A stretch of 32,374 nucleotides of DNA from Klebsormidium nitens (GCA_000708835.1 DF237754.1:1-32374), one strand, 5' to 3'. Counted from the stretch's first letter, positions 961 through 30,695 are shown. Numbers and translations are program-made. The notes: a model not told the origin generated them from the sequence alone.

Positions 961-2229
961 TTTGAGAGTTGCTCACGTTTAATGTGGCTTCGCCGCTATT
1001 AATCTTGGAGGGATGATGATTTTAAGCATTGGGGTTGGACGTGACCAGGTTGAAGACAATGTAAGCTGATTTGTGATGACGTCTGCGATTGATGCAGGAG
1101 ATCGCGGCTCGCGACTTGGTCGCAAAAGGCTATGTCGTGTTCACGGCAAGCACCCAGTGGGACGCCAAGGCAAAGAGAGGGAAGGGAGGGAAGAAAATGA
1201 TACCCCCACGGGATTGGCCGGCCTCTACCTTAGCCGATTGCCTGACCGACCGCTTCTTCCAGCCCTACAACAATACGCTGCTAATCAACACGGCAGCGTC
1301 CGGAGTCGTCGTGCTCGACTTTGACGTTGGCGACGGGGGCATGGAGCAGCTTGCTCTCTGGGAGACCGAGCACGGCGCGTTTGATGCTCCTCGAGTGCGC
1401 ACAGGCAGTGGGGGAGTGCACATCTACTTCTCTCACCGAAGAAGCCTTGCGTCAGGGTTGGGCGTGGAGACGCCGACCCACTTTGCAAAGCTGGAGCTGA
1501 GGGTCCGAGATCCGACATCTGGAAAGGAGGTTCTAAAGAAGGTGGGAGTCGACATGAGGGGCGTCAGCTCGAACGGCATGATCGCTTGCCCGCCGTCATC
1601 ATATGAGCGACTCGGGGAGACAGCACGGTACACGGTCGACGGCGGAGGCGAGCTTCCCCTGGCAGAAGATCTGCCTCCCCTTCCGAAATGGTTGATCGAG
1701 ATTCTGAACGAGCGAGCGTCCAGGGGTTCCGGGGAGCGCTCGGAAGGGCCATCAGAGGTTCTCAGCGGGGCCGGGCCCAGCGCAAGGGCCAGTGCGGGGT
1801 TTGAGGCGCCGGACTTGACGGATCGCGGGCTGCAGCAGGAAGTGGTCGAGGTGATGCGAGGCATGCTCAGCAGTTTCGGCGACAACTCCTCCGTCTTCTC
1901 GAAGGCAGAGCCGAGCACGGTTGCTGGTCTAGGGGCGGTGATGTACCACTGGCGGAATGATGGGGGAGGGCGGATGTGTCCGTATGCGGAGGAGGGGGCG
2001 TGCAGCCGCACAGCAGCAACAATTTTGGGCTCTTGAGGAGAGGCACGGAGATCACCTACGTGTGCCACAGCCAGCGGTGCAAGACAAGCGACGGCTGCCG
2101 GAACAAGAAGCTCGGGCGTCTCATGTTCCCGGTGGCCGCATCTTTCTCGGATGCTTCTCCGCTGAACAGCGGCCGGGATCGCTTGTACGAGAATCGAGAA
2201 CTACTTCCTCTCCCGTTTCTGCGGCAAAA

Positions 2230-2710
2230 CCTCTCGGTTTCGGCAGGTAGGCCGCGCTTCGAACAATATCTGTCCTAAGGCGCGTTCAATTTACCAAATT
2301 TACCAGTTGTATCCCCGGCATATAACTGGTGAGTTCACAAAACTTGATTTCGTCCGATCGGCTGACGAAGTCAAACTCGAGGGACCATGCCAGCGCGCCA
2401 CTCCAGTGATCTGTGCACGAGGTTTAGAAAGCCTCATTAAAAAACTGCTTGCAAGATGCTCTCGCGATCTGGTTGTAGAACCTCTCGGTTCAGCAGGTAA
2501 GCCGCGCGTTGAGCAGCATCGGTCCTATGGCGCTATCTTTTAACAGAATCTAGAGGTTCGTCCAATTTGGACGAAGCTCCAACTCACAAAACTTGATGTC
2601 GTCCATCTGGTGGACGAAATCATATTTAAACATCAACTTCCAAAACCCAGAGGTTGAACTCGCCTATCTGGTAGGCAAGTTTCAATCTGAGGACCAAGGC
2701 CAGCACGCCC
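2230..2710 (+). repeat. Degenerate ~250-bp tandem duplication covering the exon1/intron1 junction
   Basis: CCTCTCGGTTTCGGCAG|GTAGGCCGCGC (2230) recurs as CCTCTCGGTTCAGCAG|GTAAGCCGCGC (2481). TCACAAAACTTGAT-T/G-TCGTCC occurs at ~2335 and ~2584. Hairpin TTCGTCCAA-T-TTGGACGAA at ~2558-2576. Confidence 0.65.
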
Positions 2711-4819
2711 CAAGTCACCGTTGCAAAATGTTTGCTTACATCATCAACCTCTTGCAAGCCTGTGCTCGTGCGATTGTGCAGACCTGAATCAAGATCCGTT
2801 TCTTGTGTTACTTCTGAGCACATTTCGAAAGATTCGAGATCCAAAGATTATATTTGAAGTAGAAGTATCGAGAAGTGGTTGTGCACGAAGTGCTTCTTAC
2901 GACAAGTGACTAGCCGCTTGTGGGCAAAGACGCAAGGTTGCCACTCGACAGTCGATTGCTTGCCAATGACAAGTCGCTGACGTTTCTTCCAGGTGATGAA
3001 GGAGGGGCGCTGATCATCGACCGCTTGCAGACGTACACGGGCCGCAAGCTCGTCTTCTGTAACGAAAAATGGTTCTACTGGAACGGGTCGATTTGGATGG
3101 TGGACGTGGCTGGGCGAGTTGCGAGCCAGATCTGCCGCGGAGAGCTCAACAAGATAAGCAAGGCGTACAAGAAGGAGAAAGCGTCCGATGCCGAAGGCGA
3201 GGGTTCGCAAGTGGAGGAGGAGAAAAAGCCCAGGAAGGAGAAGCTCGTGAACTTCAACTTCAACGCCAAGATGAGCCAGATCATGACGACTCTCAAAGGG
3301 TATTGCCTGGAGCCTGCGTTCGAGGAGGCGCTCAATACCAACAGAGATGCGCTTCCTCTTCAGAACGGCGTCATCCTGCTGGAGAGCGGGATCCTGGTGG
3401 CACACCATCCGAAGGTGGGCATGTGAGGTTGCGGATGACTGACAGCTGAGCTTCTTTATTAGCAAAGCACTCTTTCGGTCGTTGACAGCAGTTTCATTGT
3501 GCACTGTTGGCCAGCTTTGCAATGTTTTAGATATTTATGTCCCAGCCAGAACTTTGTCGGCGTGCAGATACTGCTCTCTCGAGTACTTGCGCGCTCTCTG
3601 CCAAGGAGCAGAGAGACAATCTTAAGCAAGGCAGCGGCATCTGCCACGGAGTACGATTCGTCCCAACATCCTTGATCTGAGTTGAATCTACCTCATCAAA
3701 TGGTGACTTAGTCTAGGGTGAAACTCTCAACGAGGTTAGGTGGAAGCTGTCATGTTGAAGTAGCTTGCACAGAGCACTAATATCTGCATACCTCTGGGGT
3801 ACCGGTAAACATTGCATGCTGAAGGCTTGAACGGCAGATCCTGCTTTTGTTGTGTGATAGTCATCACCACATCGTCGATGAGCCCCTTCGGTTTATCTGG
3901 TCGATGCGACTGCTTGGCAGAAATGCAGAACCTTGCATCGCAATTGTGTGTTAGTGAACTACTCTCCATCTACTGTCTTGCAGTATCTGTGGTCTTTCAA
4001 GCTTTCCGTGCGGTGGCCATCGACGGGACTTGCCACGCCGCTGGGCAGGACGGGCGAGTTCCTCCGTCAGATCACGCACACTCCGGAGGCGCTTGCGTAT
4101 CTTCAGCGCATTCTTGGATACGGTATCACTGGGCACATTTCCAATCAGGTCATGCTGACGATGATTGGAGAGGGCGGAGCGGGAAAAAGCCTTCTCTTGG
4201 CTCTGCTGAGGCGTCTGATCGGTCCGTTCTACAAGGACGTCTCGAAGGACATGCTCGTGACGTCCAAGGGACAACGGCCGCTGGGCAAAGGTGCTGCAAA
4301 TCCAGCAGAAGCAGGTGAGCACATGCAGACACGAATCATGCTTGAAGTTGACATCAATGAGACGCTCCGAACATGATAGATGCCTTTGATGATAAAGAGT
4401 TCGTATGCGCTTGAAGCATATCACCCAAGGTGACGGTTAATCAACTTGTGCCGTGTTGTCAACAGCGGTTAGAGGTGAAGCTGGTTTCTGTACAAAGCTG
4501 ATTTTGGCAACGAGGTCTCTATCAACTACTAACGGCCGTGCCTCTAGATGAATGAGATTTGTTTGCGTCATAACCAAACGCTGTTCACCCAGGTTTACGA
4601 CACATTCGGATAGCGGCGTGCACGGAGTCGGAAGAGACGGATGAGTTAGCGGAGTCCAACGTGAAGCGATTGACCGGAGAGGCGACTATCACGAGTAGAG
4701 GACTCTACACGGATTACGTCACGTTTGCTACGACTCAGCTGGTAAGTCCCTCGTGCCCGATACTGGCGCAATCATGTCTTCTTTGCGAGAGACTACTATA
4801 GCCATGCTCAAATTGCCTT

Positions 4820-5560
4820 AGCTGTCTGTGACGGGTTGTATTGTCGGACGAAAACGCCTTCCAGGGCTCTTTGCATTCTCACGGCCGAAACTAGTTTCTT
4901 TCAGATGTTTGCAATATGTTGTCCAAGCTGTCTGTGCCGTCCACGAAGAGGGTTTTGTAGATGGAACCTCGTCTTGATGGACAGCGCACCTGTCCAAGTT
5001 CTCGAGGCAAGTTTTTGCAGCCGAAGTCAGTATCTGAAAGCTGACCAACCATGCTGTCCAAGCCGTCTGTGCCGTCCACGAAGAGGGTTTTGTAGATGGA
5101 TACTTACCTTGATGGACTGCACAGCTGTCTAGGGCGTCGATGCAATTCTTCACGACCAAAACTCGAATTCCCAAAGGTCTCCAACGATGCTGTCCAAGCC
5201 GTCTGAGCCGTCCATGAAGGGATTCTTATAGGTAGTACTTCCTCTTGAGGGACAGCACACCTGTCCAGGTTCTCAATGCGAGTCTTCGCGGCCAAAGCTA
5301 GATTCTAAAAGCTTACGAACCATGCTGTCCAAGCCGTCTGTGCCGTCCACGAAGAGGGTTTTGTATATAAAAATTCGTCTTCATGGACAGCACAGTTGTC
5401 TATGGCGACGATGCAAGTCTTCACGGCCAGATCTCGAATTTTCAAAGCTCTCCAACGATGCTGTCCAAGCCGTCTGTGCCGTCCATGAAGAGCGTTTTGT
5501 AGATAGAAGCCTTCTTGAAGGACAGCATTGCCGTCGACATTCACCACCTTCTCAACGACT
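4820..5560 (+). repeat. Tandem array of ~135-bp units inside intron 4 of primase-helicase 1
   Basis: TGTCCAAGC(C/T)GTCTG(T/A)GCCGTCCA(C/T)GAAG starts at 4920, 5055, 5191, 5326 and 5462 (periods 135-136). Most units also hold an inverted ATGGACAGC and a second TGTCCA-like motif. Confidence 0.9.
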
Positions 5561-7177
5561 GCCAGATCATTGAGTGTCACGAACGTGTGTGCTCAAAAAC
5601 GATCTTAATCCATTTTGCAGCATATTCTCTGCTCAAACTACCCTCCCCGAGTGAAGATCTGGACGATTGCGCTCAAGCGACGCCTTCTGACGCTGGTCTT
5701 CCCGATGCGATTCTTCTATCCGGACAAAGAACTGGAAGCCGTTGCATGGAATCCGAGACCTTGAACTGGAAGACGTCTTGAAGGCCGAGCCCGAGAAGCT
5801 TCTGGTGTTCCTGGTGCAAGGCGCCAAGGACTGGTACGCGAGTGGGAAGAGACTCCTCGACATGCCGGAGAGCAGCAAGACGTACATGCAGTCATGGGAG
5901 CAAGATAATGATCCATTCGCAGCTTTCCTTCAGGAGGAAGGCAGGTTGAACGTCAAGGCTTTTGAGTCCACGCGTAGTCTCATGGACGCGTATAACAACC
6001 CAGATAGGATGGTCGACGGCGCGAGATTTGGCGACACTGGCGCACCTCAGATCCTCAATGACCGTAAGTTTGCGGACGCTTGCAAGAAGAAGGGACTGGA
6101 GGGCCCGGATAAGCCCTCCAAGCTGAGGTTTGCTAATCCAGGGCACATAGTCCGGGGTTATCGGGGATTCCAGCTCAACACGCCAACAAAAGAGAGTATC
6201 TTAGAGAAATAGCAAGGACTTTGAAAGATGTCATATTTTTGACATTAACAGCCTCTTCGTCGAGAACAAAATCATTCAAAGCTTCTATTATGATCTCGTT
6301 GTGTTGCACGAAAAAATGATGATATGCGCAGAAGGAAATACGCCACGCATTTATGTCGGATGAAGCGTGCACGTATCATCTCTATCTCTGGCTACAAAGA
6401 GCTCTGGCTACATCTATCGGAATTCTGATCTATGACACTTGTTCAATCCGTTGTCGACGTGCCGACTCAATCGAGCACTTTGATAGCTCGTCATGACTTT
6501 CAATCCGACACCTGACTGACACATTACGGCATCTTCAAGGTCAGAACGCTGCATGAAGCGTTTATCTTCGAACCCCTTGGAGCCAACAAAAAATCTTCTT
6601 TTGTGATTGTCGTTCCTCATCCATCACTTTCAACAACGCCTGTGTAGCATTGTCGAGTTCCTTGTCGAGGTCGATGGATTTGAGATTATTGAAAGCGCAA
6701 AAGTTTGGAAGGCGAATACTGTGTCAATCTATCAAGCTTCATATATCGGGTCAAACACCCGAGGCTGATTCCAAGCAGCCGGTAGGGTCCGCGGCTGCCT
6801 CCAACCTGTTGACCCACCCCCCCCCCGCGAAGCCCCATCAATCCTTTGAGCATTGCTGCTTTTTTTGATACAAAAGCCCTGGTCACCTTGAATGATGCAA
6901 GGTTGTCGTGCATGATGCGTGAAAATGCGTCGCAAGGCGGCGTCTAGGGAACGAGGCTGAGCAGGCTGATTCCGAGAGCCAGCGTGGCAACGTCCGAAAA
7001 GAGACCCGTGGCAGGTTCGTCCGCACGAACCGCGGCGATAATTGAGTCGCTCACTTGTAATGATCTATCACACGGCACTACATTGCGAAAAGTCGATATT
7101 ATCTGATGGGTTGATCAGGTTGATAGGTGCGATTGTCAATTAGGAAGAAAGCCTCCCTACCCGTCCACACAGCGGCA

Positions 7178-8275
7178 ATGAGCAAGGATGCGTCGGCCAT
7201 TTTGGCCCGGAGCAAGGCCGAGCTCTTGGCCGTCAAAGACCGTCTGAAGGAATGGGATCGAAGCGGGCTGAGCCAAGAACCCAAACGCCCTGCACGGTCG
7301 AACGAGATGGTGAGTGATGCGCGGTTCCAGCCGAAGGAGTCCTCAGAGTACTTTTAAGGACGAAAGGGTCCAGATCCGACAACTTTCGACGAGATGGGGA
7401 CGGCGCTCTCTACGCCAGTCCTATCTCATCAATCCGTTCGAGCTCCTAAACTGGAGCAGTAAACTGACCTTGATCGACGATTGGCAATTGCTGGAGAAGG
7501 TGTTCGTCAAGGCATTCGACGATCAGGGTCGGAAGTACCCAATCGACTTCGACCGGGCCTTCGTCTGACTCAAGTATGGGAGGAGAGGAAATGCCCTGCG
7601 GACCAGGAGGACTTCTTCACGAATGACGCAGATTGCACCGTCAACGCGTCAACCTGGCATGGTTCTCAGGAATAATGCGTCGGGTGCATTTGCTAGATAC
7701 AACCCCGATTGATACTTCCTCGCGACCACGGCGTTCAAGCACTTCGCCATGCAAGCCCGGACGGAGGCTGGCGGCGTGGTCGTTCGAAACTTCTTCGTGG
7801 CAATCCGCGACGCATACGTCGAGCTAACCGCAATTTCTACCAGTGGCCGACCTAGCTTGACGAGGGAGGCGGCCCTTTTGATGGCGTACCACGAGAAGAA
7901 CTGCATCTACGTGGGCACAATCCAGGCAAGAGGGCAGGGAGGAAGGCGCATGTGCAAGTTTGGAAGGACCACCGACCTTGCCAGCCGGTGTGCTGCGAAT
8001 CAAGCATCGTTCAAAAATCCATTTGAGCTGCTCCATTTCGCCGAAGTGGAGAATTGCGAGCGTGCCGAGCGCGTATTGAAGACTTGCCGGAGATCCGTCC
8101 GAAACTCCATCGGACCACCATCCACGGGATCGAAAAGAAGGATGAGTTTGTGACTCTTGGTAGCCTCGCTGCCAGGAAGATGGAAGCCAGTCTGAAAAGG
8201 GCGGCACAGAGGTCGGTGTCTGCAGTCTTGCGAATGACCGTTCGTGACAAGAGAAGGTGGGAGAAGATGGTGTAG
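7178..8275 (+). pseudogene. Decayed AntA/MSV199-like DNA-binding + T5orf172 (GIY-YIG-like) gene, with a probable intron at 7310-7418
   Basis: YPIDFDRAFV*LKYGRRGNALR and AFKHFAMQARTEAG..VRNFF resemble viral antirepressor-like N-termini. CIYVG..KFGRTTDLASR..FELLHFAEVENCERAERVLK is T5orf172-like. In-frame TGA at 7566 and 7710, frameshift at ~8090. Phase-0 donor ATG|GTGAGT and acceptor CCAG|TCC match. Confidence 0.7.
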
Positions 8276-9085
8276 CCTTGCATCCATCCGGAGTAGGGAA
8301 AGTTCGAACTTGATCACGAGTGGAGGATGCGTGTGTACGACGATATCATACTCAATTCCCGGGGCCGAGGAAATAGAAGCGGATTTGTTTTTAAACCCGT
8401 GCACATAGGTAATTGTCCAAATATTTGTTACGACATTAGTGATATGTAGCGTGAGCATTCGATTTTCAGTTCAACATTTACAACATGAAAAAAAGTCGCA
8501 GAAATATCGTACAGGGGCGATATGATTTGATTTCCTTGCGGATTGAAATTTCACTTGACCGTGTGCAAACATGAAAGTTAGAGTTCGAGGTTAACTAGAT
8601 TGCTATGGAGCATCAAGAATTCCGTTTTGGAATTGTATACGATTTGTCACATTTATTTCTCGAAATACCGCACTTTATTTCTTACCTTTCCTACTCCTTT
8701 TCATGCATAATATCTGTTGTCACAATCGAATGAAGTGTTTTACATCTCTTGCATATATCACAAATGATCTCACATTTATTTGCAAATGAATAATATCACA
8801 TCCAACATCTGTTACTTCCCATTATATGTGCATTTGTGGATGGAAACTACTATATGTTTACTTACATTACAACTCGTCAATTCTTTCAAAAATTACCCTC
8901 GTATTATACAAGGTTAATTGACCTACCTAACGTGAGTTTGCGGATTGATATAACAAAACTAAAATGAAACAAACGACCTTGCAAAATATGGTATACGCAA
9001 CTATCTAGAGCGAAAAGGCAATACAAAAAGGCAGTTGTCCCGCAAATGACAATATCTTCACCTAACCATCGACTTTTCCATCAGC

Positions 9086-11202
9086 TTAAACCGGCACACA
9101 TGCTGGAGCCGCACCTAGTCCAACACCACATTGAAAGCTTGGCGCACACTTGAACAATAGCGAAGTGCTTGAAGCCTGGCAGTTGCACACACCTCTGCAT
9201 GAAGGGACAGTAAAGATAAGCAAAAAAACACTAATTTCTTTATGACATTTCCAATCACAATTTTCTTGGTAAAGAGATATCGTATGCTTGCAGTATGATT
9301 TCCGCTTCATTGAAGTTCCTACATCTCAAATGAATGAGCATGCAAAAAATGTACAAGAAACAAATGTGACATAATGAAAGCACAATTTTGCAAACGGAAG
9401 AGAACTAACATCTCAGAAGATTGGGTGAAGCAAAACTACTTACTGTGCGGACTTGCTGCAATAGAAGTTCTCTCCATTGCAGTTTGGTGCAGTTTCACCC
9501 TTACTGGGTGGTGGGGCGTTGTTACAGTCAGGACTGTTCACATCTGGGGGGGTTTGAGTGACAATGTTGACCAATTCTCCTCCAGCAATTTGAATGTCGT
9601 CAATCTCGTTGTCGACAAGACCATTTGTTTCATTCACCTGCGATATGCAGAAATCAGTTGTGTCGTTTGTGTCGTCGGTGTCGTTATGTCAACGTATTCA
9701 GCGACAAGTTGAGCATGTACAACAACCAAGAACCTGATACTGAAACTTCCTCGACAATAAATACATCTTTGACGAAGCCGATTCGGAAAAGTCTAAACCA
9801 GGTCTCACCGATGGTCTCACCAATGGGTTCATTCCCCTGCAATATGAGGACTTCAATGAAAAAAAGTATTTCAACAGATCAAATGCCGAGCCTGTACAAC
9901 TAAAAGAATCAAACTGAGACTTCATCTAAAATTCTTGACAATAATTACAGCATAGCAGTCAGTCAAGATAAACAGAAAAGGAAGAACTTTATTCAAATCA
10001 TCCTGATCGTAGGTACAATGCCATGTATATTTCCAGACTGTTAACACACCTTCAACTAAGTTACCAAATGTTGACAACCTGCCTATTGCATCAACTGAAA
10101 AGGGAAGTAGGCCGACTCAGAGTTTTGTTATGATTGCTCAGGGTTGGCCGTATTGCTCAGGGGCAAACAGTCAGAGAATTAAAGACTTTGAAGGATTATA
10201 TGCAAGGTCTGGCATAGGTGTTGGCAGCACCTCAAGAATTATCAGCATCTACCCTATAATATTCATAATAAGTCTACCAGGGATCATTTTAATACCGTCG
10301 ACCATGTAACATTCATAGCGCTCGTAAAGCAAATAACTTACAAGGTTCGATGTGCCATTGCGGAGGTCGCCGTAACCCGCAAGTAAGGCGTTGAGTGTAG
10401 TGTTCACTTGCAGCAGCATTCGGCGGGGTGCTGAACTGTGGGTGACCATCCATGCGTAGACATTTTCAGAAGACTGCAGCAGAGAAAAGTACACCACCAC
10501 ATCTCACCAATCTCTAGCAGCCAGCGTGAGAGTTGATGTCTGCACAGGTTCTTACTAAACGTAATAACCTTCAGGCAAGCACACGTGCTGAAAACAGCAA
10601 GAGAAAAGGAATTATTCATTCAGGATCCATAAACGATCAAAGACTTCTTTCCTGTGCGACATGCAGCATTCGAGTCCTGACTTCTTACTAGCATTGGAGG
10701 AAGGTGACTGAGAAATTGATGTGACCCGAGCTGATGAGAACAGAAGAGTGATTGAAGCAGCTATGAAATGTAAGAGCCATGATCCATCGCAAAGCATCTA
10801 GCTCCCTCAGAAAGGCAGGCTCATAAAAAGATTGAAACATGCCTTTGATAAAGGAACTACAGCTGGCTAGACAACACCAAAACTCATTAAACTACAGAGT
10901 TGTTTGTCTTGATAGTCCTCAGAAACTTGCAAGGCATTAATAATATGCAGTAACACAGCATGGTCCTATCGCGCTTCGAACATCTCCTCACTGGCTGCTT
11001 CTCCAAAAGAGCAGCAACAAGTGAGTCACAACATATCTGCGGTGGTCTGCAAAACGCAGGCATTTATCCGGAACAGCCTGCATCATGAGATTCCAAGCAT
11101 GATTCTCACCGGTTTCTCCAGTGGCACAGCAGCACTGCTAGCAGCCCCCAGGCAGGCTGCAAGGAGGCAGAAGAGAAATATAGGACGGGCGGACAGCACC
11201 AT
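9086..11202 (-). CDS. Probable multi-exon host-type gene for a secreted protein with a Cys-rich C-terminus; middle exons unresolved
   Basis: Exon 11202-11110 encodes signal-peptide-like MVLSARPIFLFCLLAACLGAASSAAVPLEKP and ends at a GTGAGA donor. Exons 9637-9444 and 9194-9086 splice in phase 2 to give ...DCNNAPPPSKGETAPNCNGENFYCSKSAQGVCNCQ...FKCAPSFQCGVGLGAAPACVPV*. A further candidate exon at ~10475-10345 ends in GTAAGT. Confidence 0.35.
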
Positions 11203-12084
11203 CTTGTTCGTGCCAGGTACGAATCTAGACAGCGATGGCAGCTAGCTCAGAGCGGGAGATGGAAAATTGGACAAGATATGTCGATGGTTTACGAGGGTGA
11301 TGCTGAAATATTGTACCAAGTAATGGAAGTTGTCTGCACTAGATGCTCAGCAAAATGCTGCTGATACCGTATCACTACGCAATAAATATTCAGTAGTCTG
11401 TTAGGATTCTCATGTAGATAGTAAAGGCCATACAGGACCCTACATCATACAACCTTTTCATCCTAGATCAGTACTCGGAAGATGTGTTTCTACGAAGACA
11501 GCGAGTCCCGACTCCCGAGATGTAGAGATCTCGCTTGACCCAGTGACCGTTTACTAAAGAGTGTACTTTGTGTGCGTGTCAATGATTGGGGCTTACTTGT
11601 TTGTGGCTGAGACGTATACCACTATCGGGCGTGGCGGTGTGTCACGCGCCCCGAACCGCCATTTGTGCTGATTGATTGCGGCGATACTTAATGCTCGCCC
11701 TCGCTTATATGGGGCGCGATGAGACAGCGTTGATTAGCGGTTGCCTTCGGCGTCCAGCCCCTCGTAAAAAGGCGCCCGATCGCATCCCCGATCCCCAAAA
11801 GGGGGTCGCCTGAAGACAATTTTGTTCCAGGGGGGCCATCGGGCCCCCGATGCCAGGCTTGTGAATGTTAATGGAGTTCATTTGCAAAGCTGCAAGAGCA
11901 CGAAAATCGCCGGTTGGAGATACTCGGAGCATATTTCTAGCTCGGTTATCTCTCTTGCAGTATCACTGCAACCGTCCTACGTTGTCCAGGTTCGGAGGAC
12001 ACGATTATTAGCAACTAGGCACGACGTTTTTACGATAAACAGCAAGCCAAATGAACTTCGGCCAAAAAATTAAACCACTCGTAA

Positions 12085-19159: not shown

Positions 19160-19299
19160 TGTCCAAGTGTCCAAAGTCTACCACCAACTTTCCGCGACCA
19201 TCGATTGCTGACGTCATCGAAAATTTTCGGCCAGTCTCCGGTTGTCCGGGTGTCCAAGGTTCATTGCACACTTCTCGCGGCCGCCGGATGCTGACGTCA
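19160..19299 (+). repeat. Two bipartite TGTCCAAG-dimer/TGACGTCA elements in intron 18992-19471
   Basis: Dimers start at 19160 and 19243; TGACGTCA starts at 19209 and 19292 (offset 49 in both). Confidence 0.8.
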
Positions 19300-21760: not shown

Positions 21761-22243
21761 TGACGTCAGCGATTCATGACCATGAAAAGTTTGTGCCGGA
21801 GCTTGGACACTTGGACAGTCGTGAGCCGGAGACAGGCCCGCGCTCTGATGACGTCAGCGATGAGCGCCCGCGAAAACTTTGTGCCGGAACTTGGACACTT
21901 GGACACCGCTGATCCGAGGCATGCCCGCGCTCGGATTCGGACGTCAGCCGTGAGCGACCGGAAAAAGTTTTGCACCCGAGCTTGGACACTTGGACAGTCT
22001 CAAGCCGAGACAGGCCCGCGCACCGATGACGTCAGCGATGAGCGACCGCAAAAAGTTTTTGCGCCAGAGCTTGGACACTTGGACACCGCGAAGCCGAGAC
22101 GGCCCCTGGCTCCGATGACGTCAGTGACGAGCGACCAGACCTTGGACACTTGGACAGTTTCAAGCCGAGACAGGACCGCGCTCCGATGACGTCAGCAATG
22201 AGCGACCGCGAAAAGTTTGTGCCAAAGCTTGGACACTTGGACA
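21761..22243 (-). repeat. Array A: six ~88-bp bipartite units, reverse orientation
   Basis: CTTGGACACTTGGACA at 21802, 21890, 21981, 22070, 22141 and 22228, each preceded by TGACGTCA or a one-base variant. Confidence 0.95.
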
Positions 22244-22384: not shown

Positions 22385-23782
22385 CTAGTTCGTATCTCGC
22401 GCTACGTATCGCTTGTACGCCTTGGAGTTCTTAAACCTGGGCTCAAGATTCTCCTCAATCCATCTCCTCCGGGACTCTTCTAGCTCTCGATGCGCGCGCT
22501 CTAGTTCCGTCTTATATCTTCCAAAGTCCAGAAGATATTTGCGGTACTCATTGATGAGTGCGCATTCTTCGTTCATCCATGCCTTCCACGGCATGCCGCC
22601 AGATTTTTGGGCGATGAAGCCGGGTTTAAATCGCCTGTCGTACAAAGGGCCAAAGAGCTCCGTAGCGTAGCGAGCCATCGTCTCGTCTCGGTTCAAGCCG
22701 CCAACCGTGGAGCACGCAAAATGCTCGACGAATGTTTGCAGGGTCTTTGCTCTCGCCTCCTGCTGCAAAAAGAAAAATGTTGATGCTGCGGCCAGAATGC
22801 GAGATACGGTGCCGCCTCGACTTGGCAACCAAAAACGTCGATAGATGCACGCATATTGGTGATAGTGTGCACGCCGTTGGTGAATGGAACATTGCTGACT
22901 TTTACTTGCCCCCTTGCCGTGCACGATTGCTGCTCCATTCATTGAGGATGGATGTACATAGATCGTTTTCCAGTTGTTTAGAATTTTGAGCAATGTACAT
23001 CAATTACTAGAAATGTACACGAAAATCTGTCTAAAATATTGAGTGATGTACATCAATCACTAAAAATGTACACGAATCTCTGTCCAATCTGTCCAAAATA
23101 TTGAGTGATGTACATTAATCCACAAAAATGTACACGATTTTCTGTCCAAAGAGGAATATTGTTGGTCCTATGGCAAAATCGGCTGACTTGATGCTAGTAT
23201 CACCCTCCGTTGCTAGATATGGCTTGCGCTACGTACCTCAACCTTGTCAGGGTGGAAGTGCAGTGACCAAGTCTTATGGTGTAATACAATCTCGCCGCGA
23301 TCGAACATCTCCCAAGCTTTGCTCGGAAGAAGCTCGGCATCCGCGATGAGCCACGACAGGGGCGGTCGCACATACGTTGGTGCCTTTGGCATGGGTGGAG
23401 CGGGGATCGCGTTGCGAGCCATGATGCGGTACCTCGCCATATGCCGTGTTCTAAAGACAGCGCGTTCTCCATCAAGAGTGCGTCGATACTTTGAAACCGC
23501 AGCGTTGTTGCTTTGGCGCTTCAACTGACGAAAAGCTTCGGACTCCAAGCCGCAATATTTCGAGGGCGCACGATCGCTCGGAAGCTTGTAAGGCTCGCAT
23601 CCCATCCTCTCTCGGTGACCTTCCAAAGCTTGCTTCGACATGAAGCTCTTGTTGCAAATCTCGGATCCATCTTCACGGTGCCGTTCGAGGCAAATGAAGC
23701 ATCTTCCGTCCCGCTTCCAAAGCAGTGACGAAGCCGTAGTCGTTGATGCTGCGGCAACATCTGGTGGACTAACGGCAGACAT
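22385..23782 (-). CDS. Two-exon protein (~307 aa; exons 23782-23237 and 22762-22385) with a C2HC zinc finger, bZIP-like basic region, J-domain-like HPD motif and C-terminal helical region
   Basis: C-x11-C-NKSF-MSKQA-L-EG-H-x5-C; KRQSNNAAVSKYRR (N-x7-R); EIVLHHKTWSLHFHPDK aligns without gaps to the DnaJ consensus EIKKAYRKLALKYHPDK. Donor GAG|GTACGT and acceptor TTTTTGCAG|CAG are both phase 0, and the spliced frame is open. Confidence 0.65.
22986..23150. repeat. AT-rich ~52-62-bp tandem repeat (three copies) in the intron of the ZnF/bZIP-like gene
   Basis: TTGAG(C/T)(A/G)ATGTACAT(C/T)AAT...AAATGTACACGA..TCTGTC(C/T)AA repeated from ~22986, ~23039 and ~23101. Confidence 0.8.
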
Positions 23783-23962
23783 GATAAACTTTCAGCCGAG
23801 GATGATCGTAGAGAGGGCGCTCGACGAGCCCTAAACCGATCCAGCAGCAGTGACGATCCTAAATCGAACAAAGAGGGCGCCTTCAAATAGATGAATGCCA
23901 TTGTAAATCTAGATCAAGGTCGATCTGTCTTTCGATTTCTAAAGCCGTCGCGATTCACCACG

Positions 23963-24370
23963 TGTCCAAGTGTCCAAGGTCTGTGATCAACTTTTCGTGG
24001 TCGTCCATCGTTGACGTCATCCGAGCGCGGGCTTGTCTCGGTTTCGCGGTGTCCAAGTGTCCAGGGTCTGTGACCAGCTTTTCGTGGTCGTCCGTCGCTG
24101 ACGTCATCCGAGCGCGGGCTTGTCTCGGCTTCGCGGTGTCCAAGTGTCCAAGGTCTGTGACCAACTTTTCGTGGTCGTTCGTCGCTGACGTCATCCGAGC
24201 TTGGGCCTGTCTCGGCTTCGCGGTGTCCAAGTGTCCAAGGTCTGTGACCAACTTTTCGTGGTCGTCCGTCGCTGACGTCATCCGAGCTTGGGCCTCTTTC
24301 GGCTTCACGGTGTCCAAGTGTCCAAAGTCTAGCACAAAACTTTTCTTGGTCGCCCCTCGCGGACGTCATC
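23963..24370 (+). repeat. Array B: five 87-bp bipartite units, inverted relative to array A
   Basis: TGTCCAAGTGTCCA(A/G) at 23963, 24050, 24137, 24224 and 24311 (exact 87-nt period), each followed 49 nt later by TGACGTCA (GGACGTCA in the last unit). Confidence 0.95.
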
Positions 24371-24430: not shown

Positions 24431-24925
24431 TCAGTTCGATTCTGACTGTGATTCAGAATTTGAATCGACAGATTCTGCTCTCTTTCTCGGAGCCGCCTTC
24501 TTTCCAACGCTTTTCTTTGTGGTGGTCTTGCTAGTCGTTTTTGCCCTTGAAACCTTCTTTGAAGCACTCATACTCTCGATGTCTTCGATTTCCATCTTTG
24601 TAGGTGTACTCTGAAAGGTGCCCTCAAATGGCAAACCTGTCGGGCGATTACTTTTCATCACCGGACCGATCTCAACCGAGTATCCATACTTCTTGTTTAA
24701 TGAACCTCGTGTGGTTTCTTGTATAAGGACAACTACCCTCTGTGGGAGCGAAACGTTCTTCCCTTGGCACTTCTGAGTCCGAAATAGTTGCGATCCTGCT
24801 CGGGCCCCTGCTTGACAAACGCGCCCTTTCTTTGCATCGATTTCAAGTCGTGTATCCTTCAACAAAGCGAGGGCATCATTCCCCTTTGCATCGTAGGCAG
24901 CAATCACTCGAAAGCTTCGTTTCAT
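24431..24925 (-). CDS. MC1-like non-histone chromosomal protein with a Lys-rich C-terminal tail (~164 aa)
   Basis: MKRSFRVIAAYDAKGN..KKGRVCQAGARAGSQL..VLIQETTRGSLNKKYGYSVE..KSNRPTGLP parallels, from memory, archaeal MC1 (RNFVLRDEDGN..GKQPRQAALKAA..IRLRERGTKKVHVF..KNRPAWMP) and the giant-virus MC1-type ETTRGS motif. Tail KKVSRAKTTSKTTTKKSVGKKAAPRKR. Intronless. Confidence 0.7.
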   Translation of the reverse strand: MKRSFRVIAAYDAKGNDALALLKDTRLEIDAKKGRVCQAGARAGSQLFRTQKCQGKNVSLPQRVVVLIQETTRGSLNKKYGYSVEIGPVMKSNRPTGLPFEGTFQSTPTKMEIEDIESMSASKKVSRAKTTSKTTTKKSVGKKAAPRKRAESVDSNSESQSESN

Positions 24926-25106
24926 GCATTCCATATTGGATGACCTGGTGCACTTCTGATGATAGGTTTGTAGAAAATAATAACTCCGCCCCCTAATGCA
25001 TATCTGACTGTGCGGATTCAACAATCTCAGCCGCAACCAAGAACATGGAGTGCATATGGTGTAAATTGCACGCGGAGAGACAGGAAAAAAGTGTCAAATG
25101 CCTTTT

Positions 25107-25145: not shown

Positions 25146-25228
25146 CAACAATTTTCGGCCCCCCGCACGCAGTTTCAAGAAAATAAGCGTTTAGGAGAGG
25201 TTTCGATGTCATTTTATTGTGACCGACC

Positions 25229-25921
25229 NNNNNNNNNNNNNNNNNNNNNNNNNNNNNNNNNNNNNNNNNNNNNNNNNNNNNNNNNNNNNNNNNNNNNNNN
25301 NNNNNNNNNNNNNNNNNNNNNNNNNNNNNNNNNNNNNNNNNNNNNNNNNNNNNNNNNNNNNNNNNNNNNNNNNNNNNNNNNNNNNNNNNNNNNNNNNNNN
25401 NNNNNNNNNNNNNNNNNNNNNNNNNNNNNNNNNNNNNNNNNNNNNNNNNNNNNNNNNNNNNNNNNNNNNNNNNNNNNNNNNNNNNNNNNNNNNNNNNNNN
25501 NNNNNNNNNNNNNNNNNNNNNNNNNNNNNNNNNNNNNNNNNNNNNNNNNNNNNNNNNNNNNNNNNNNNNNNNNNNNNNNNNNNNNNNNNNNNNNNNNNNN
25601 NNNNNNNNNNNNNNNNNNNNNNNNNNNNNNNNNNNNNNNNNNNNNNNNNNNNNNNNNNNNNNNNNNNNNNNNNNNNNNNNNNNNNNNNNNNNNNNNNNNN
25701 NNNNNNNNNNNNNNNNNNNNNNNNNNNNNNNNNNNNNNNNNNNNNNNNNNNNNNNNNNNNNNNNNNNNNNNNNNNNNNNNNNNNNNNNNNNNNNNNNNNN
25801 NNNNNNNNNNNNNNNNNNNNNNNNNNNNNNNNNNNNNNNNNNNNNNNNNNNNNNNNNNNNNNNNNNNNNNNNNNNNNNNNNNNNNNNNNNNNNNNNNNNN
25901 NNNNNNNNNNNNNNNNNNNNN
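25229..25921. other. Assembly gap (N run)
   Basis: Run of N; ORFs spanning it are artefacts. Confidence 1.
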
Positions 25922-26555
25922 CGACTCGGAAGAGTAATTATGCAGCCCCTTTTGCTATTCTTGCTTCCGGACAAACGCAATCGGCTTACTCGAAGTACAT
26001 GCAGAGGATGAAGCCGACCGAGGAGGAGCTCGATCATTCTATGCAGAGGAAAACGCCGAAGGAAGTCGACAATTGGATTCCTTGGTCCGAGCTCTTGGAA
26101 AAGCGATCGGAACTCGACGATCAGATCAACCGCTATGTCGTGCCGAGATTCATTAACAAGGAACGCTTGGATCGCCATGATAAGCAGTTGGTGATGGATC
26201 ATCTGATCCTCTCACTATACACGATGCCGCTGGGACCTTTGCGAAATGAATACGCGGAATGCATCTTTTTCATGAGGGATCACGAGAATGATTGCGTTGC
26301 GATCAAACCGGGTGACATCAACGTCGTCGAGTTGAAGGACGATCCCAAGCAGTGTTTCTTTCACATCGGTCGACACAAGACCCTCGAAAAGGATGGAGTT
26401 CGGCGCCTTGAAATTCCCGAGGATCTCGTAAAGGTTATACTCAGATCCTTCAATCTGATTCCTAGAAAACATTTGATCCTTAAGAGGCATTATCTCGTCT
26501 GGAAAGATGAACCGATATCGAACTTCACCGTAGTTCTCAACGACCTTGGTCAGCA
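25922..26555 (+). CDS. Tyrosine recombinase, partial copy 1 (both ends lost in gaps)
   Basis: Nearly identical to 26604-27391 but with substitutions (RYVVPRFINK vs RYIVPRFLNK; MRDHENDCVAIKPGDI vs MKEHENDRVTIKSGDV). Confidence 0.75.
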
Positions 26556-26603: not shown

Positions 26604-27391
26604 CGAAGAGTAATTATGCAGCCCCTTTTGCTATTCTTGCTTCCGGACAAACGCAATCGGCTTACTCGAAGTACATGCAGAGGATGAAGCCAACCGAGGA
26701 GGAGCTCGATCATTCTATGCAGAGGAAAACGCCGAAGGAAGTCGACAATTGGATTCCTTGGTCCGAGCTCTTGGAAAAGCGATCGGAACTCGACGATCAG
26801 ATCAACCGCTATATCGTGCCGAGATTCCTTAACAAGGAACGCTTGGATCGCCATGATAAGCAGTTGGTGATGGATCATCTGATCCTCTCACTATACACAA
26901 TGCCGCTGGGACCTTTGCGAAATGAATATGCGGAATGCATCTTTTTCATGAAGGAACACGAGAATGATCGTGTTACGATCAAATCCGGTGACGTCAACGT
27001 CGTCGAGTTGAAGGACGATCCCAAGCAGTGTTTCTTTCACATCGGTCGACACAAGACCCTCGAAAAGGATGGAGTTCGGCGCCTTGAAATTCCCGAGGAT
27101 CTCGTAAAGGTTATACTCAGATCCTTCAATCTGATTCCTAGAAAACATTTGATCCTTAAGAGGCATTATCTCGTCTGGAAAGATGAACCGATATCGAACT
27201 TCACCGTAGTTCTCAACGACCTTGGTCAGCGCCATTTCGGTAGAAATCTTAGCTGCACTCTGCTTCGACACATCTCACATACTGAACAGAGTCCAAAGCT
27301 GATGTCTCGTGGTGAAGTGAGAGCAAAGGCACAATACATGGGCCAAAGCATGAGGACTGCGGATGAGCTCTATAATAGACGATTCGAATGA
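26604..27391 (+). CDS. Tyrosine recombinase/integrase of the virus-associated type, copy 2 (5' end in gap)
   Basis: Catalytic signature LYTMPLGPLRNEY (R), IGRHKT (K), CTLLRHI (R) and MGQSMRTADELY (Y nucleophile, with Q at the usual H/W position). Intronless. Confidence 0.8.
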
Positions 27392-27487
27392 GTGGGCAAT
27401 TCTCTTCTTTCTGTACTTTGTGTGCGTTCTCTGAGGAGCAATTTTTCTATGTTAGAGTTATCAGGAGGCATCAACTGCACTCCAGCT

Positions 27488-27877
27488 ATGGAATCGACGA
27501 ATCACAAACATGGATCGACCACGTGTGCTGCTTGTCTCGAGGCGAGCATCTATAAGGACGAGCATCAGGCCAAGAAGAGAGAATATTCGAAGAGTTACTA
27601 TCAGATACATAAAGACGAGATCCTCTTGAAGAAGGCTCTTGAACGATTGCGAAGGGAAGCAAGACAAGCAGACGGACGAGGCAGCGACTTTATGAGGCAC
27701 AGGCTGCTCTTCCTTGGATTCGATCGTACTAGACAATTACACCTCTTTGCAAGCGTGGGCTCCGTCGAGAGCCGCGTTCCATGTCAAAAAATTTCTGGGG
27801 TTGGAAATATAAGGGGGCTCCGAACCTCCTTCGGTCTGTGGAAAGCATGGCAACGAATTCGATTGCGCACGTGTTAG
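27488..27877 (+). CDS. Small hypothetical protein with CxxC and a basic/aromatic helix
   Basis: TCAACLEAS..KKREYSKSYYQIHKDEILLKK resembles the EYxKxYYxxNKEKI-type helices of small DNA-virus proteins. It sits between the recombinase and primase 3. The C-terminal half is doubtful. Confidence 0.4.
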   Translation: MESTNHKHGSTTCAACLEASIYKDEHQAKKREYSKSYYQIHKDEILLKKALERLRREARQADGRGSDFMRHRLLFLGFDRTRQLHLFASVGSVESRVPCQKISGVGNIRGLRTSFGLWKAWQRIRLRTC

Positions 27878-30695
27878 AAGCGTATGCACAAGAAGGACTA
27901 TACGCTATCCCGGCAAAAGTTAAAGCAACGGACGAAGGATCGAAGCACATTCTGGCAACAATGCCGCATGCGAAAGGCAATGACGCTATACGAACGGTGT
28001 CCGATTGGAGAATGGCAAGGGATCGAATCATGGAAAAGATTGAAAAAGATCGATTCAACTTTTTGGCGATAAAGACGGGAACCATTTCAGACATCTTCGT
28101 GCTCGATATAGACACACGAGACAAACCAGAAAAAGATCTCCAATCTGGCATGCCTCTCTGGAATAGATTGATTGCAGAACACGGAGAACCAGACACTTTA
28201 AGAGCCACTTCAGCCAGCGGAGGCCTCCATTACTACTTCTCGTACGGTGAATCACTCAACGAGGGACTCCAATCAGGGAAGTGTTTCGCTGGCGTAGACT
28301 ACGAGGGCCAGTATTATGGAATAGATGGGCGCGGAGACGGAGGCGTTGTTTTGGCCCCGCCAGGCTCACCTCAGATTGGATTGAATTACACTTGGTGCGC
28401 ACAACCCTTAAGGACGAACATCCGACCAGCTCCATCATGGTTGATTCGATTCCTCAACGATTCTGCTGGGAGATCCGCAAACAAAAGTCTCGTGTTGACT
28501 TCGAGCGATCGAATTCAAGAGTTGTCAGCAAACGGTGCTGATATCGAGCAAACAAGGGGGCTTGAATCAAGCACCGTCGAAGAAACAATGCGAGTGGAGG
28601 TGGATACCGATGACTCACACAATAGACAAGCAATCGAGCACAAGAGGATTGCTGATGCGATGATGCAGCTGTTACAAGACGCTGGACTCGACACGGAGGT
28701 TCGCTTCTCTGGCAACGTGACCTTCCGCGGTTCGTACGGTATTCTCTATTCATTCATCTGTGATGGTCCTCGAACCTGCATACATGGTCATCAATACACT
28801 GGTAGCAACAATCTGACTCTCGTGAAGCGAGGATGGACGGTATTCTATCGATGCTTTGGCTCTGAATGCACCGAGTTGAAGCCTCTTACGGAGCTTGGCA
28901 ACATTCCAATACCAATATCGTTGTTGGATGCCAATCCTGTACGTCTGCACCCGACTCATGATTGGAGTACCTTTCCGAATAACATAAGAACGATGTCGCA
29001 GGATGCGGTGGAAGCACACATGAATCTTATCCGGCGTAACGTGACGCAGCGCTATCGAGGCATGGCTGCGATCTTCTCGGCCATGTATCTCGTTGACGGA
29101 CGCATCATTGCTGAGGGCAAACGCTTTCACTACTGGAACGGTCGCAGATGGATAATCGATAACGCGTTCCATATACAAACCGTCTTTAGTAACCACATGG
29201 CTCGTATCATGACCTGGTATTCGAAACAGAGATTGAATGCTTTCAAGCATGAGATTTGCGCACATATGAGAGGCTCTGCAACAGAGCAGAACGTGTTATC
29301 AACGCTAGAGTCAGTCCTTCCAAATTGGGCAATGAACCCAACGACCGAAGAAGAAAGAAAAGCATGCAGCACCGCGTGGAGGGTGGTCAACAAAACGTAT
29401 CCGTTCCCAACGAAGAGGGATCTGGTTGATCTGACACGGGGATCGGAGGTTCGTGTATGTCTCGAATTTGTATGAACTCCTTGCAGGCTCCTCAACCTCT
29501 CAGCGAGATGATGGATATTGCCAATCCGTTCTTGTTTGCGTGTGCGAACGGCGTCATTAACACCGAGACCGGAAAGTTGCTCGCATTTGATCCTGCTCAT
29601 CTGTTTTCACGCGCGTCGAAAGCAACTTTTCGTGGAATGCCAAAGGCCGAAAGCCGATTCGAGAGGTTCCTGCTTGATTGCTTCAACGATGACAGAGAAG
29701 TACTCGAATGGTATCAGCTTTTCTGCGGCTATTGTATGATGGCGGATACGAGTGAACAATTGTTCCTAGTCAAGCAAGGCAATGGAGCTAATGGAAAGTC
29801 CTTGACAAAGCTAGCAAGTCTCGAAGTTCTAGGCAGTTACGCTGTCGTTATGTCAGAAGACTGCATCATCGAGGCCGGTAAACGGTCCGCTGGCGCGGCT
29901 TCGAGCCACATAATGGCTCTTCGGGGCGGGCGGCTCGCTGAGACCGACGAGTCGGGAGAGAAAGCAGTCCTGAATGAGGCCGCAATGAAAGCCCTATCAA
30001 GCGGGGGAACCACTACAGGGCGCGAGCTGCATAGCAGACAAGAGACATTCGAGCTCACTGTGAAGACCGTCCTCAACACGAACTACAAGCCTATTCTTCA
30101 GAACGTATCCTACTGTGTCACTCGACGCTTGGCACTACTTCCGATGTTGGTCACTTTCTTACCTCCCGAAAAGCTCGAATCCAGCAAACCACGCCCGAAG
30201 CTTATCGATACAACCCTGGAAACCTACTTGAAAAGCGACCAAGGTCGAGATGAGGGTCTTTCATGGTACGCAAAGGGAGCAAGACGTTATCATGAACTCA
30301 AGCGAGCAAATCCCAACACGCTACCATTGATGCGCAGACCTCGTGTGATGGAAGAAGCCGTTAGAGCATACATCAACGACTCGGATATCGCTAGGCGATG
30401 GATCGTCGATTGTCTCGAATTCGAAGATATACAACCCGGAGAAAGAGCGACATGGCACTTAGCCGTTGGCGAACAGCTCGGAGAGGTGTTCCGAGCTTGG
30501 TTGAAGGAAGAAGACTTGACTAGCTCCTTGTCGGCAACGGCGCTGAAAAAACGCATCTTAGATTATGCTGAAGGAAAGAATCGGGTGGTTGTAGACGGCC
30601 GCTTCACAAACAGCCAAGTACAATCTCGAGGTCAGTTCAAAGGCCTTTCGGGGGTTCGATTGAAATCTGGCTATGAATCTCATGCATTGGAGTAG
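27847..30695 (+). pseudogene. Primase-helicase 3: intronless Prim-Pol + Zn-ribbon + D5/P4-family SF3 helicase, with one frameshift at ~29470
   Basis: IFVLDIDT, SASGGLHYYF, GIDGRGDGGVVLAPPGS; RTCIHGHQYTGSNNL..YRCFGSEC; FHYWNGRRW; FACANGVINTETGKL; Walker A GNGANGKS; RLAETDE; TGRELHS; LNTNYKP; TRRL. Adding one T to GAATTTGTATG joins ORFs 27781-29475 and 29457-30695. The start may be 27781 or 27847. Confidence 0.9.

What the first reader, a model, noticed from the sequence alone, without database searches (positions are those of the whole stretch)
1092..30695. Cluster of integrated, apparently capsid-less primase-helicase replicons (Prim-Pol/D5 helicase + tyrosine recombinase + MC1 + T5orf172 + iteron-like arrays) in a eukaryotic chromosome
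Seen: three divergent Prim-Pol/SF3 fusions within 30 kb, an intronless block of MC1-like gene, recombinase, small ORF and primase 3 (24431-30695), a T5orf172 remnant, and structured repeat arrays. Established: this gene set occurs in polinton-like viruses, virophage/transpoviron-like elements, NCLDVs and P4-like satellites. No capsid, packaging ATPase or pPolB was recognised here. Inference: this is a family of self-replicating, recombinase-integrated plasmid- or satellite-like eukaryotic elements that insert next to one another.
Basis: partly seen in the sequence, partly recalled or inferred. Interest (0 to 1): 0.8.

Follow-up and report, generated by a model that had tools for sequence, protein, structure and literature searches.

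The report
Virus-derived replicon pile-up in green alga
This stretch of a likely Klebsormidium (green alga) genome holds broken copies of three virus-type DNA-copying genes, one of them in a many-times-repeated gene block with a recombinase and no virus-shell gene in this copy, which is likely a shell-less mobile element that would copy and re-insert itself.

Summary
The genes are real. The window holds three Prim-Pol/D5-type primase-helicases (26-38% identical), a tyrosine recombinase related to those of polinton-like viruses (PLVs), a T5orf172 remnant and non-random repeat arrays. Named relatives are from Klebsormidium nitens. The block MC1-like / recombinase / 80-aa ORF / primase 3 is a conserved multi-copy module: 15 of 23 contig lengths of primase-3-clade relatives equal those of recombinase-bearing contigs, against 0 of 10 for other primase clades.

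Corrections: primases 1 and 2 are separate, intron-rich families with no recombinase beside them. All three copies are frameshifted. MC1 is only weakly supported. A KDZ-like transposase faces primase 3. Many 'iterons' lie in introns, though 14 units keep two motifs at a fixed spacing.

No capsid or packaging ATPase is in the window. However, K. nitens has seven published PLV capsid loci, and I could not read the other copies' flanks, so 'capsid-less' is unproven. Best reading: a capsid-less, PLV-derived integrating replicon in an insertion hotspot (0.45). The scan earlier noted KDZ-primase pairs and an intron-rich primase on other pieces of this genome (unchecked notes).

The parts
667..712 (+). 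Left copy of a ~46-bp imperfect direct repeat flanking primase 1 (candidate end or att-like site)
   Evidence: (D19), 132: score 47, 0 of 200 shuffles reach it
1092..6212 (+). Primase-helicase 1 (Prim-Pol, D5_N, SF3); at least 5 exons, GT-AG introns, at least 2 frameshifts; multi-copy family
4916..5527 (+). 135-bp tandem array (4.5 copies) with TGTCCAAG core, inside intron 4 of primase 1
6398..6447 (+). Right copy of the direct repeat flanking primase 1
7314..8153 (+). Decayed T5orf172 (GIY-YIG-type) gene, two in-frame stops
   Evidence: E 8e-4
8374..11106 (.). Single-copy, AT-richer host-like island separating the repeat blocks (not part of the elements)
   Evidence: X2 depth 3.6-4.2 with contigs of 0 differences; GC 0.42, CpG o/e 0.69
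12040..12560 (+). 76-bp tandem array (about 6 copies)
14302..14349 (+). Solitary bipartite unit (TGTCCAAG, 32 nt, YGACGTCA) in an unannotated multi-copy region
15660..21480 (+). Primase-helicase 2: acidic N-terminal exon, Prim-Pol, D5_N, SF3; 6 exons, 5 GT-AG introns (one splits Walker A), about 1049 codons, one frameshift near 18.86 kb; bipartite units in introns 1 and 3
   Evidence: collinear copy on one 5990-nt contig in run X5
21760..22243 (-). ~88-bp tandem array of bipartite units, inverted relative to 23962-24370; copy number varies between copies
   Evidence: joints
22385..23782 (-). Likely two-exon gene with a C2H2-like finger and an HPDK (J-domain-like) motif; intron holds a 62-bp array (22975-23149)
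   Evidence: Atlas lead to a DnaJ cluster at only 0.75
23962..24370 (+). 87-bp tandem array (4.7 copies) of bipartite units
24431..24934 (-). Intronless 167-aa basic-tailed protein, tentatively giant-virus MC1-like; 14 relatives at 50-90% identity
   Evidence: weak; no support
25229..25921 (.). N gap; a contig end from run X6 shows the recombinase reading frame continues into it
   Evidence: (table 7, read by eye against P0001)
25929..26554 (+). Partial second copy of the recombinase (13 differences in 626 nt), probably an assembly overlap
26605..27391 (+). Tyrosine recombinase, C-terminal 261 aa; second catalytic His replaced by Gln in this copy
27488..27730 (+). Small ORF (80 aa in relatives, CxxC motif), frameshifted near 27644 in this copy
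27781..30695 (+). Primase-helicase 3, intronless; one frameshift at 29471 not shared by several other copies; an intact relative has 968 aa at 95% identity
30766..30898 (.). ~120-bp imperfect inverted repeat between the facing 3' ends of primase 3 and the KDZ-like gene; tandemly repeated in other copies
   Evidence: z -3.8, 0 of 200 shuffles; loose ends
31093..32374 (-). KDZ-like transposase, three C-terminal exons spliced in frame; runs off the window
   Evidence: Pfam KDZ only E 0.14; multi-copy

Best explanation
The window is an insertion hotspot in a likely Klebsormidium chromosome, and its core is a multi-copy, intronless module (MC1-like gene, tyrosine recombinase, 80-aa ORF, Prim-Pol/SF3 primase-helicase) that is likely a capsid-less descendant of the replication-and-integration end of a polinton-like virus. 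Shown: the genes, their repeated co-occurrence and order, the absence of structural genes in this copy, and the decay of this copy. Inferred mechanism: the recombinase would excise an intact copy as a circle and re-insert it; the primase-helicase would load on repeated short boxes, unwind and prime, with host polymerases completing synthesis; the small basic protein would bend or compact the episome. Spread between cells would need a helper (the resident PLVs or giant viruses). Primases 1 and 2 are older, intron-laden lineages of the same protein architecture that landed nearby independently.
For: Module conservation. Of 23 distinct contig lengths for primase-3-clade relatives, 15 equal a length in the list of 51 recombinase-bearing contigs; so do 7 of 12 for the MC1-like gene and 9 of 10 for the small ORF. 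For the more distant primase clades (P0083, P0088-P0092 and the P0089 cluster) 0 of 10 do (read against the same list). One 54,068-nt contig length carries full-length versions of three genes (P0001, P0058, P0072). Gene order survives in mis-joined models P0027 and P0079. Multi-copy: 983 contigs of run X1 lie on 14.5-32.4 kb, 779 of them under 99% alike. Origin: the recombinase profile finds 836 clusters, the listed full-length ones mostly 300-350 aa; the only viral loci found carry it two genes from an A32-type ATPase (L001); PLVs commonly pair YR with a primase-helicase (PMC10120064, PMC4642659, passages). No structural genes here: Pfam scans of the main ORFs and of 118 further frames; a Walker A scan of 691 frames shows no packaging-ATPase candidate, and L001's putative capsid and its ATPase give no tblastn hit; no unassigned N-free frame of 400 aa exists. 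Origin-like boxes: 14 of 17 GACGTCA sites have TGTCCARR 32-35 nt upstream, 11 at exactly 33 nt, while those spacers are only 33-97% alike. PLV insertion hotspots have a precedent in Tetraselmis (PMC9356565, passages).
Against: No flank of any other copy could be read (searches found no loci; no genome is held), so capsid genes beside other copies are not excluded. K. nitens has 7 PgVV-group capsid loci. No direct or inverted terminal repeat flanks the module. Recombinase and primase divergences are only loosely congruent (Spearman 0.59, Mantel 379 of 5040 permutations, 7 pairs). The bipartite boxes surround primase 2 and the J-like gene and lie left of the module, not inside it; 16 of 46 TGTCCAA sites are in predicted introns, which is odd for an origin. 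No circle, empty site or expression was shown.
Confidence: 0.45

Rival explanations
1. The module is the left-over replication and integration end of ordinary capsid-bearing endogenous viruses (PgVV-group PLVs, with some genes from giant-virus inserts). The structural half was deleted here or sits beside other copies.
For: Seven PgVV-group capsid loci in K. nitens (PMC10120064 Tables S1, S4, S5). YR plus primase-helicase is a standard PLV pair. Phycodnavirus-like inserts are known in Klebsormidium (PMC5294986). The MC1-like protein's nearest folds are giant-virus proteins. One K. nitens primase model is joined to a PF19150 domain. Every primase in this window is broken.
Against: Both sides of the module are occupied by non-structural genes that are themselves multi-copy. 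In run X5, single contigs join primase 3 to the hairpin array and the array to the KDZ-like gene, so that neighbourhood recurs in a second sample. No NCLDV hallmark gene (capsid, PolB, A32, VLTF3) was found in the window. Three primase paralogs at 26-38% identity do not fit one virus.
Confidence: 0.3
2. The mobile unit is a giant KDZ-type DNA transposon (over 18 kb) that captured viral replication genes as cargo. The transposase moves it, the arrays are subterminal or internal binding sites, and the recombinase and primases are passengers or amplify copies.
For: A spliced KDZ-like gene faces primase 3 across a hairpin array. All bins from 14.5 to 32.4 kb other than the N gap and one private intron insertion are deep in X1 and X7. 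Pieces of primase 2, the J-like gene, recombinase, primase 3 and the KDZ-like gene occur together in X5 and X6. Precedent: Plavaka-flanked giant repeats up to 50 kb with tyrosine recombinases in Amoebidium (PMC11244446, passages).
Against: KDZ identity is weak (Pfam E 0.14). No terminus or target duplication can be seen in one copy. No contig spans the whole block. Co-presence in X5 and X6 may only reflect high copy number. The recombinase-primase link holds across 40-95% divergence, which suggests the module has its own history.
Confidence: 0.2
3. The cluster is largely an assembly mosaic of repeat copies, so the adjacency of the units is artificial.
For: Two N gaps and a 98% identical partial duplication of the recombinase. 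No laid contig spans the whole region.
Against: Contigs with 0 differences confirm local sequence. Primase 2 is collinear on a 5990-nt contig and small ORF-primase 3 on two abutting contigs of another sample. Protein records show the same gene order.
Confidence: 0.05

Closest known systems
Polinton-like viruses of the PgVV group with OLV11-like tyrosine recombinase and primase-SF3 helicase (PMC4642659; PMC10120064; bioRxiv 10.1101/2022.07.28.501842; passages read)
   Same: Related recombinase family (23% identity to the one in L001, two genes from an A32 ATPase), primase-helicase partner, intronless block, endogenous clustering, and a host species that has such capsid genes.
   Different: No capsid, penton, A32 ATPase or terminal inverted repeats in this copy; the primase is Prim-Pol (PF09250) fused to a P4/D5-type helicase, not TVpol; an MC1-like gene is present; sister lineages carry spliceosomal introns.
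P4-like satellites and phage-inducible chromosomal islands (recalled; primase family tested by TIGR01613)
   Same: Capsid-less integrase plus P4-family primase-helicase; repeated short boxes in direct and inverted orientation (P4's origin boxes are recalled, not found in a paper here).
   Different: Eukaryotic nuclear host; recombinase of the PLV family; no helper, att site or capsid-hijacking gene shown.
Plavaka-associated giant repeats of Amoebidium (PMC11244446; passages and Fig. S4 legend read)
   Same: Large repeated blocks of intron-poor genes with tyrosine recombinases next to a DDE-type transposase.
   Different: The transposase here is KDZ-like, and Plavaka is a different lineage (PMC12730594, passages); the passages read mention no primase-helicase in those repeats.
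KDZ (Kyakuja-Dileera-Zisupton) transposons (PMC12730594; passages read)
   Same: Spliced transposase with a weak KDZ match; such elements are known to carry cargo genes.
   Different: Described cargo is TET/JBP, not replication genes; termini and 7-8 bp duplications could not be tested.
Giant endogenous viral elements in Klebsormidium (PMC5294986; passages read) and Mimivirus gp275 MC1-like protein (bioRxiv 10.1101/2024.02.22.580433; passages read)
   Same: MC1-like and T5orf172 genes are giant-virus-type; the helicase matches ASFV C962R.
   Different: No giant-virus hallmark gene in 32 kb; three divergent primases rather than one.
Transpovirons, Cryptons, pipolins and the yeast 2-micron plasmid (all recalled)
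   Same: Capsid-less eukaryotic or organellar elements with a helicase, a tyrosine recombinase, or a recombinase plus tandem arrays.
   Different: As recalled, none combines a PLV-type recombinase with a Prim-Pol/SF3 primase-helicase: transpovirons use an SF1 helicase, Cryptons have no replicase, pipolins use a PolB.

Membership tests
Polinton-like virus | PgVV-like major capsid protein gene | tested here: not met
   For this window only: no unassigned N-free frame of about 400 aa, no Pfam capsid hit, no tblastn hit with L001's putative capsid (that label is my inference from size and position). Other copies untested.
Polinton-like virus | A32/FtsK-HerA packaging ATPase | tested here: not met
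   Walker A scan of 691 frames shows no candidate outside the primases; no Pox_A32 hit; L001 ATPase gives no hit. Window only.
Polinton-like virus | Minor capsid (penton) gene | tested here: inconclusive
   No hit with one putative L001 penton; such proteins diverge too fast for one query.
Polinton-like virus | Terminal inverted repeats | tested here: inconclusive
   None between the module's flanks, but the true ends are unknown.
Polinton-like virus | OLV11-like tyrosine recombinase (accessory) | tested here: inconclusive
   Tyrosine recombinase shown; related to the one in a PLV-like contig. OLV11 itself was not compared.
Polinton-like virus | Structural genes beside the other genomic copies | not testable with these tools
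   No genome held; no loci returned.
P4/PICI-like satellite | P4-family primase-helicase next to a tyrosine integrase, without capsid genes | tested here: met
   TIGR01613 112.9 bits against a cut-off of 108.7; recombinase within 400 nt upstream; no capsid in the window.
P4/PICI-like satellite | attL/attR direct repeats and excision | tested here: inconclusive
   None around the module; a 46-bp direct repeat flanks primase 1. No circle junction among the listed joints (lists truncated).
P4/PICI-like satellite | Packaging by a helper virus | not testable with these tools
   Needs infection or virion sequencing.
KDZ transposon | KDZ transposase domain | tested here: inconclusive
   Pfam PF18758 E 0.14 on one exon; spliced core reads HDNAC, DRFH, AAES (motif assignment recalled).
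KDZ transposon | Termini with 7-8 bp target-site duplication enclosing the module | not testable with these tools
   The gene runs off the window and no second locus was available.
Giant endogenous viral element | NCLDV hallmark genes (capsid, PolB, A32, VLTF3) in the block | tested here: not met
   No such Pfam hit; only the D5-type helicase is shared.
MC1-like chromatin protein | MC1 fold or profile match | tested here: inconclusive
   Model pLDDT 59; BFVD top three hits are giant-virus proteins at E 0.025-0.076; no Pfam or PDB match.

The most novel reading that the evidence does not exclude
Klebsormidium hosts a new class of nuclear, capsid-less, self-replicating elements, a eukaryotic counterpart of P4/PICI satellites. 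A PLV-type recombinase and a Prim-Pol/SF3 replicase, acting on fixed-spacing two-part DNA boxes, excise, amplify and re-insert the element, hitch-hike on resident PLVs or giant viruses, and have persisted long enough to gain spliceosomal introns and fuse with KDZ transposons.
Probability: 0.3. Interest if true: 0.85.

Novelty: new variant of a known kind. Interest (0 to 1): 0.6.

Why it matters
If intact copies truly lack capsid genes, this is an intermediate between polinton-like viruses and transposons: a eukaryotic element that carries its own replicase and recombinase but no virion, in a close algal relative of land plants that grows in culture. It would make two questions testable: whether viruses give rise to satellite-like nuclear replicons in eukaryotes, and how viral genes gain introns. 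Intact recombinase and primase genes exist in other copies, and the two-part boxes give a concrete binding-site prediction. If capsid genes sit beside the other copies, it is an ordinary but undescribed PLV family.

Tried and rejected
No whole genome is held, so genome-wide synteny could not be read.

Scans for loci with context found no Klebsormidium copy: viral contigs (one search gave only the two PLV-like loci), metagenome contigs and prokaryote genomes.

The recombinase model (pLDDT 60) gave only sub-threshold Foldseek hits, though XerH and Cre ranked first. The MC1-like protein: no usable Atlas hit; best VIA-align Z 4.0, with MC1 not listed, which excludes nothing. No Rfam hit. No RNA holder was listed, which is no evidence on expression. 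The absence of primase 1 and the host island in X5 and X6 is not interpreted. One search's tree used a wrong frame for primase 3 and was discarded; its gap and duplication counts stand. (MC1-like against recombinase profiles) was uninformative.

Rejected: that the three primases form one family; that the N gap hides a capsid gene (the recombinase frame continues into it, and 693 N, an assembler's estimate, is too short for a 406-aa capsid gene); that 'Pri-Hel' beside BANV01 in Dataset S1 of PMC10120064 annotates those elements (it is the colour legend).

Literature searches that found no description of this element. A search for the P4 origin box returned only unrelated papers. The library lacks most subscription papers, and bioRxiv supplements are closed; those of 10.1101/2022.07.28.501842 may give the gene content of Klebsormidium PLVs.


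Full report
Observation. Pfam finds Prim-Pol at three places and D5_N after each. The three proteins are 26-38% identical in their best segments. A profile of ten primase relatives matches ASFV C962R at E 1e-23 and poxvirus D5 more weakly, and the helicase half of primase 3 passes the P4-family primase cut-off. The recombinase has no library hit. An alignment with 26 relatives has R202, R318 and Y353 invariant and K247 and H344 nearly so, and its profile matches XerA at E 3.4e-5. T5orf172 is a weak hit in a frame with two stops. The MC1 label rests on sub-threshold fold hits to giant-virus proteins; Pfam, PDB sequence and PDB fold searches gave nothing.

Host. Named relatives of the MC1-like protein and the primase are Klebsormidium nitens gene models. 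I infer a Klebsormidium host. No genome is held.

Gene structure. Primase 2 has six exons from 15660 to 21480 and five GT-AG introns, and it begins with the acidic ORF at 15660. Spliced, it gives about 1049 codons with one frameshift. Primase 1 has at least five exons and at least two frameshifts. Primase 3 is intronless with one frameshift at 29471 that contigs in three of four runs do not share. The window's recombinase has Gln at the second catalytic His. This locus is therefore a set of decayed copies. In a tree of 28 Prim-Pol domains (5 short sequences left out), primases 1 and 2 lie outside the clade that holds primase 3. A spliced KDZ-like transposase faces primase 3 across a hairpin array (the Pfam match is weak, E 0.14). 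A likely J-domain-like gene lies between the two inverted arrays.

Copy number. Of 983 contigs of run X1 laid on 14.5-32.4 kb, 204 were at least 99% alike and 779 less. In run X2, 8.6-11.1 kb has summed depth 3.6-4.2 with exact contigs, against 10-23 over most of primase 1 and 9-28 over 13-17 kb. Summed depth is not a copy number, but the contrast marks a single-copy island between repeated blocks. In X5 one contig covers primase 2 collinearly from 15707 to 21773, and three more cover 27023-32374 with a break in the hairpin array. A contig end in X6 shows that the recombinase frame continues into the N gap (read by eye against P0001).

The conserved module. The recombinase search gave 20 relatives at 52-93% identity, the MC1-like search 14 and the primase search 25. 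I could not fetch their DNA, so I compared the reported contig lengths. Against 51 lengths for recombinase records, 15 of 23 primase lengths matched, 7 of 12 MC1-like and 9 of 10 small-ORF lengths. The primase list held P0072-P0078, P0080-P0082, P0086 and the listed members of the P0076 cluster (15 of 16 shown). It left out the five NCBI models, three remote hits (P0094-P0096) and the distant clades P0083, P0088-P0092 and the P0089 cluster; for those clades 0 of 10 lengths match. The MC1 list left out the one NCBI model. One match (4666) crosses sources and may be chance, and the small ORFs were reached through a fused record. Two mis-joined proteins preserve order: P0027 runs from recombinase into the small ORF, and the K. 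nitens model P0079 starts with recombinase residues before the primase. Recombinase and primase divergences agree only loosely (Mantel 379 of 5040), which suggests shuffling or several elements per contig.

Origin and capsid question. The recombinase belongs to a family of 836 clusters. The Klebsormidium sequences form one clade (support 1.0) within a sister group of unnamed proteins. The only viral loci found are PLV-like: L001 carries the recombinase at 23% identity, with an A32 ATPase and a lipase. PLVs often pair a recombinase with a primase-helicase (PMC4642659 and PMC10120064, passages). In the window I found no capsid, ATPase or PolB gene. However, Tables S1, S4 and S5 of PMC10120064 list seven PgVV-group capsid loci in K. 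nitens, and phycodnavirus-like inserts are known in the genus (PMC5294986, passages). Capsid-lessness is thus shown for this copy only.

Arrays. TGTCCAAG occurs 37 times against 1.3 expected. Fourteen units pair TGTCCARR with YGACGTCA 32-35 nt downstream, none in 100 shuffles. Eleven have exactly 33 nt, with spacers 33-97% alike, mean 60%. Conserved motifs at a conserved distance with a drifting spacer suggest a two-part protein-binding site (inference). Against a simple origin: of 46 TGTCCAA sites, 16 lie in predicted introns, 21 in the two inverted arrays and 9 elsewhere, and the two-part units surround primase 2 rather than primase 3. The likeness to P4 origin boxes is recalled, not tested. 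No terminal repeat flanks the module, but a 46-bp direct repeat flanks primase 1.

Mechanism and rivals. I favour a capsid-less, PLV-derived integrating replicon (0.45): excision and insertion by the recombinase, unwinding and priming by the primase-helicase, and accumulation at hotspots as described for Tetraselmis PLVs (PMC9356565, passages). These steps are inferred; only the parts, their linkage and their multiplicity are shown. The rivals are remnants of capsid-bearing viruses (0.30), cargo of a giant KDZ transposon (0.20; compare the Plavaka giant repeats in PMC11244446, passages and one supplement legend, and KDZ termini in PMC12730594, passages) and assembly mosaic (0.05). I had noted the KDZ-like gene before consulting earlier findings. 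An unchecked note on another piece of this genome reports the same facing arrangement three times, which raised that rival's weight but is not independent proof.

Novelty. Searches found no description of this element; the library is incomplete, and closed bioRxiv supplements may bear on it. Every part belongs to a known family, so I file it as a new variant of a known kind, with a 0.3 chance of a new satellite-like class. Interest 0.6.

Noticed in passing
window 31093-32374 (-) and 30766-30898: Spliced KDZ-like transposase facing primase 3 across a ~120-bp hairpin unit that is tandemly repeated in other copies; both junctions with the array recur in run X5.
   Followed up: partly
window 22385-23782 (-): Likely two-exon gene with a zinc-finger-like motif and HPDK, bracketed by two inverted arrays of the same 87-bp unit, with a 62-bp array in its intron.
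   Followed up: partly
window 14302-24280: Two-part motif TGTCCARR-(32-35 nt)-YGACGTCA in 14 copies; the second half contains both the palindrome TGACGTCA and CTGAC, a branch-point-like word (recalled), and several units lie in introns.
   Followed up: partly
window 667-712 and 6398-6447: 46-bp imperfect direct repeat on both sides of primase 1; a candidate pair of ends.
   Followed up: partly
window 17580-18330: Primase 2 intron 2 is about 430 nt longer than in copies from X5 and X6, which suggests a private insertion.
   Followed up: no
window 12860-15600: Multi-copy region with splice-like signals and no recognised ORF; it may hold 5' exons of primase 2 or another element's end (short CCGTCCGA-type repeats near 12890-13040).
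   Followed up: no
window 8374-11700 (-): Single-copy host-like gene with no Pfam match; CCAAT- and TATA-like words near 11580-11715.
   Followed up: no
P0085 (K. nitens KFL_008360020): Gene model joining a PF19150 domain, a Prim-Pol primase and an HSP70 fragment, so another primase clade neighbours a different, probably viral, gene.
   Followed up: no
L001:10848-11798 and 14366-16990: The PLV-like contig with the nearest viral recombinase also encodes a Tet/JBP dioxygenase (E 3e-20) and a long ORF that looks like a primase fused to a non-SF3 helicase (by eye).
   Followed up: no
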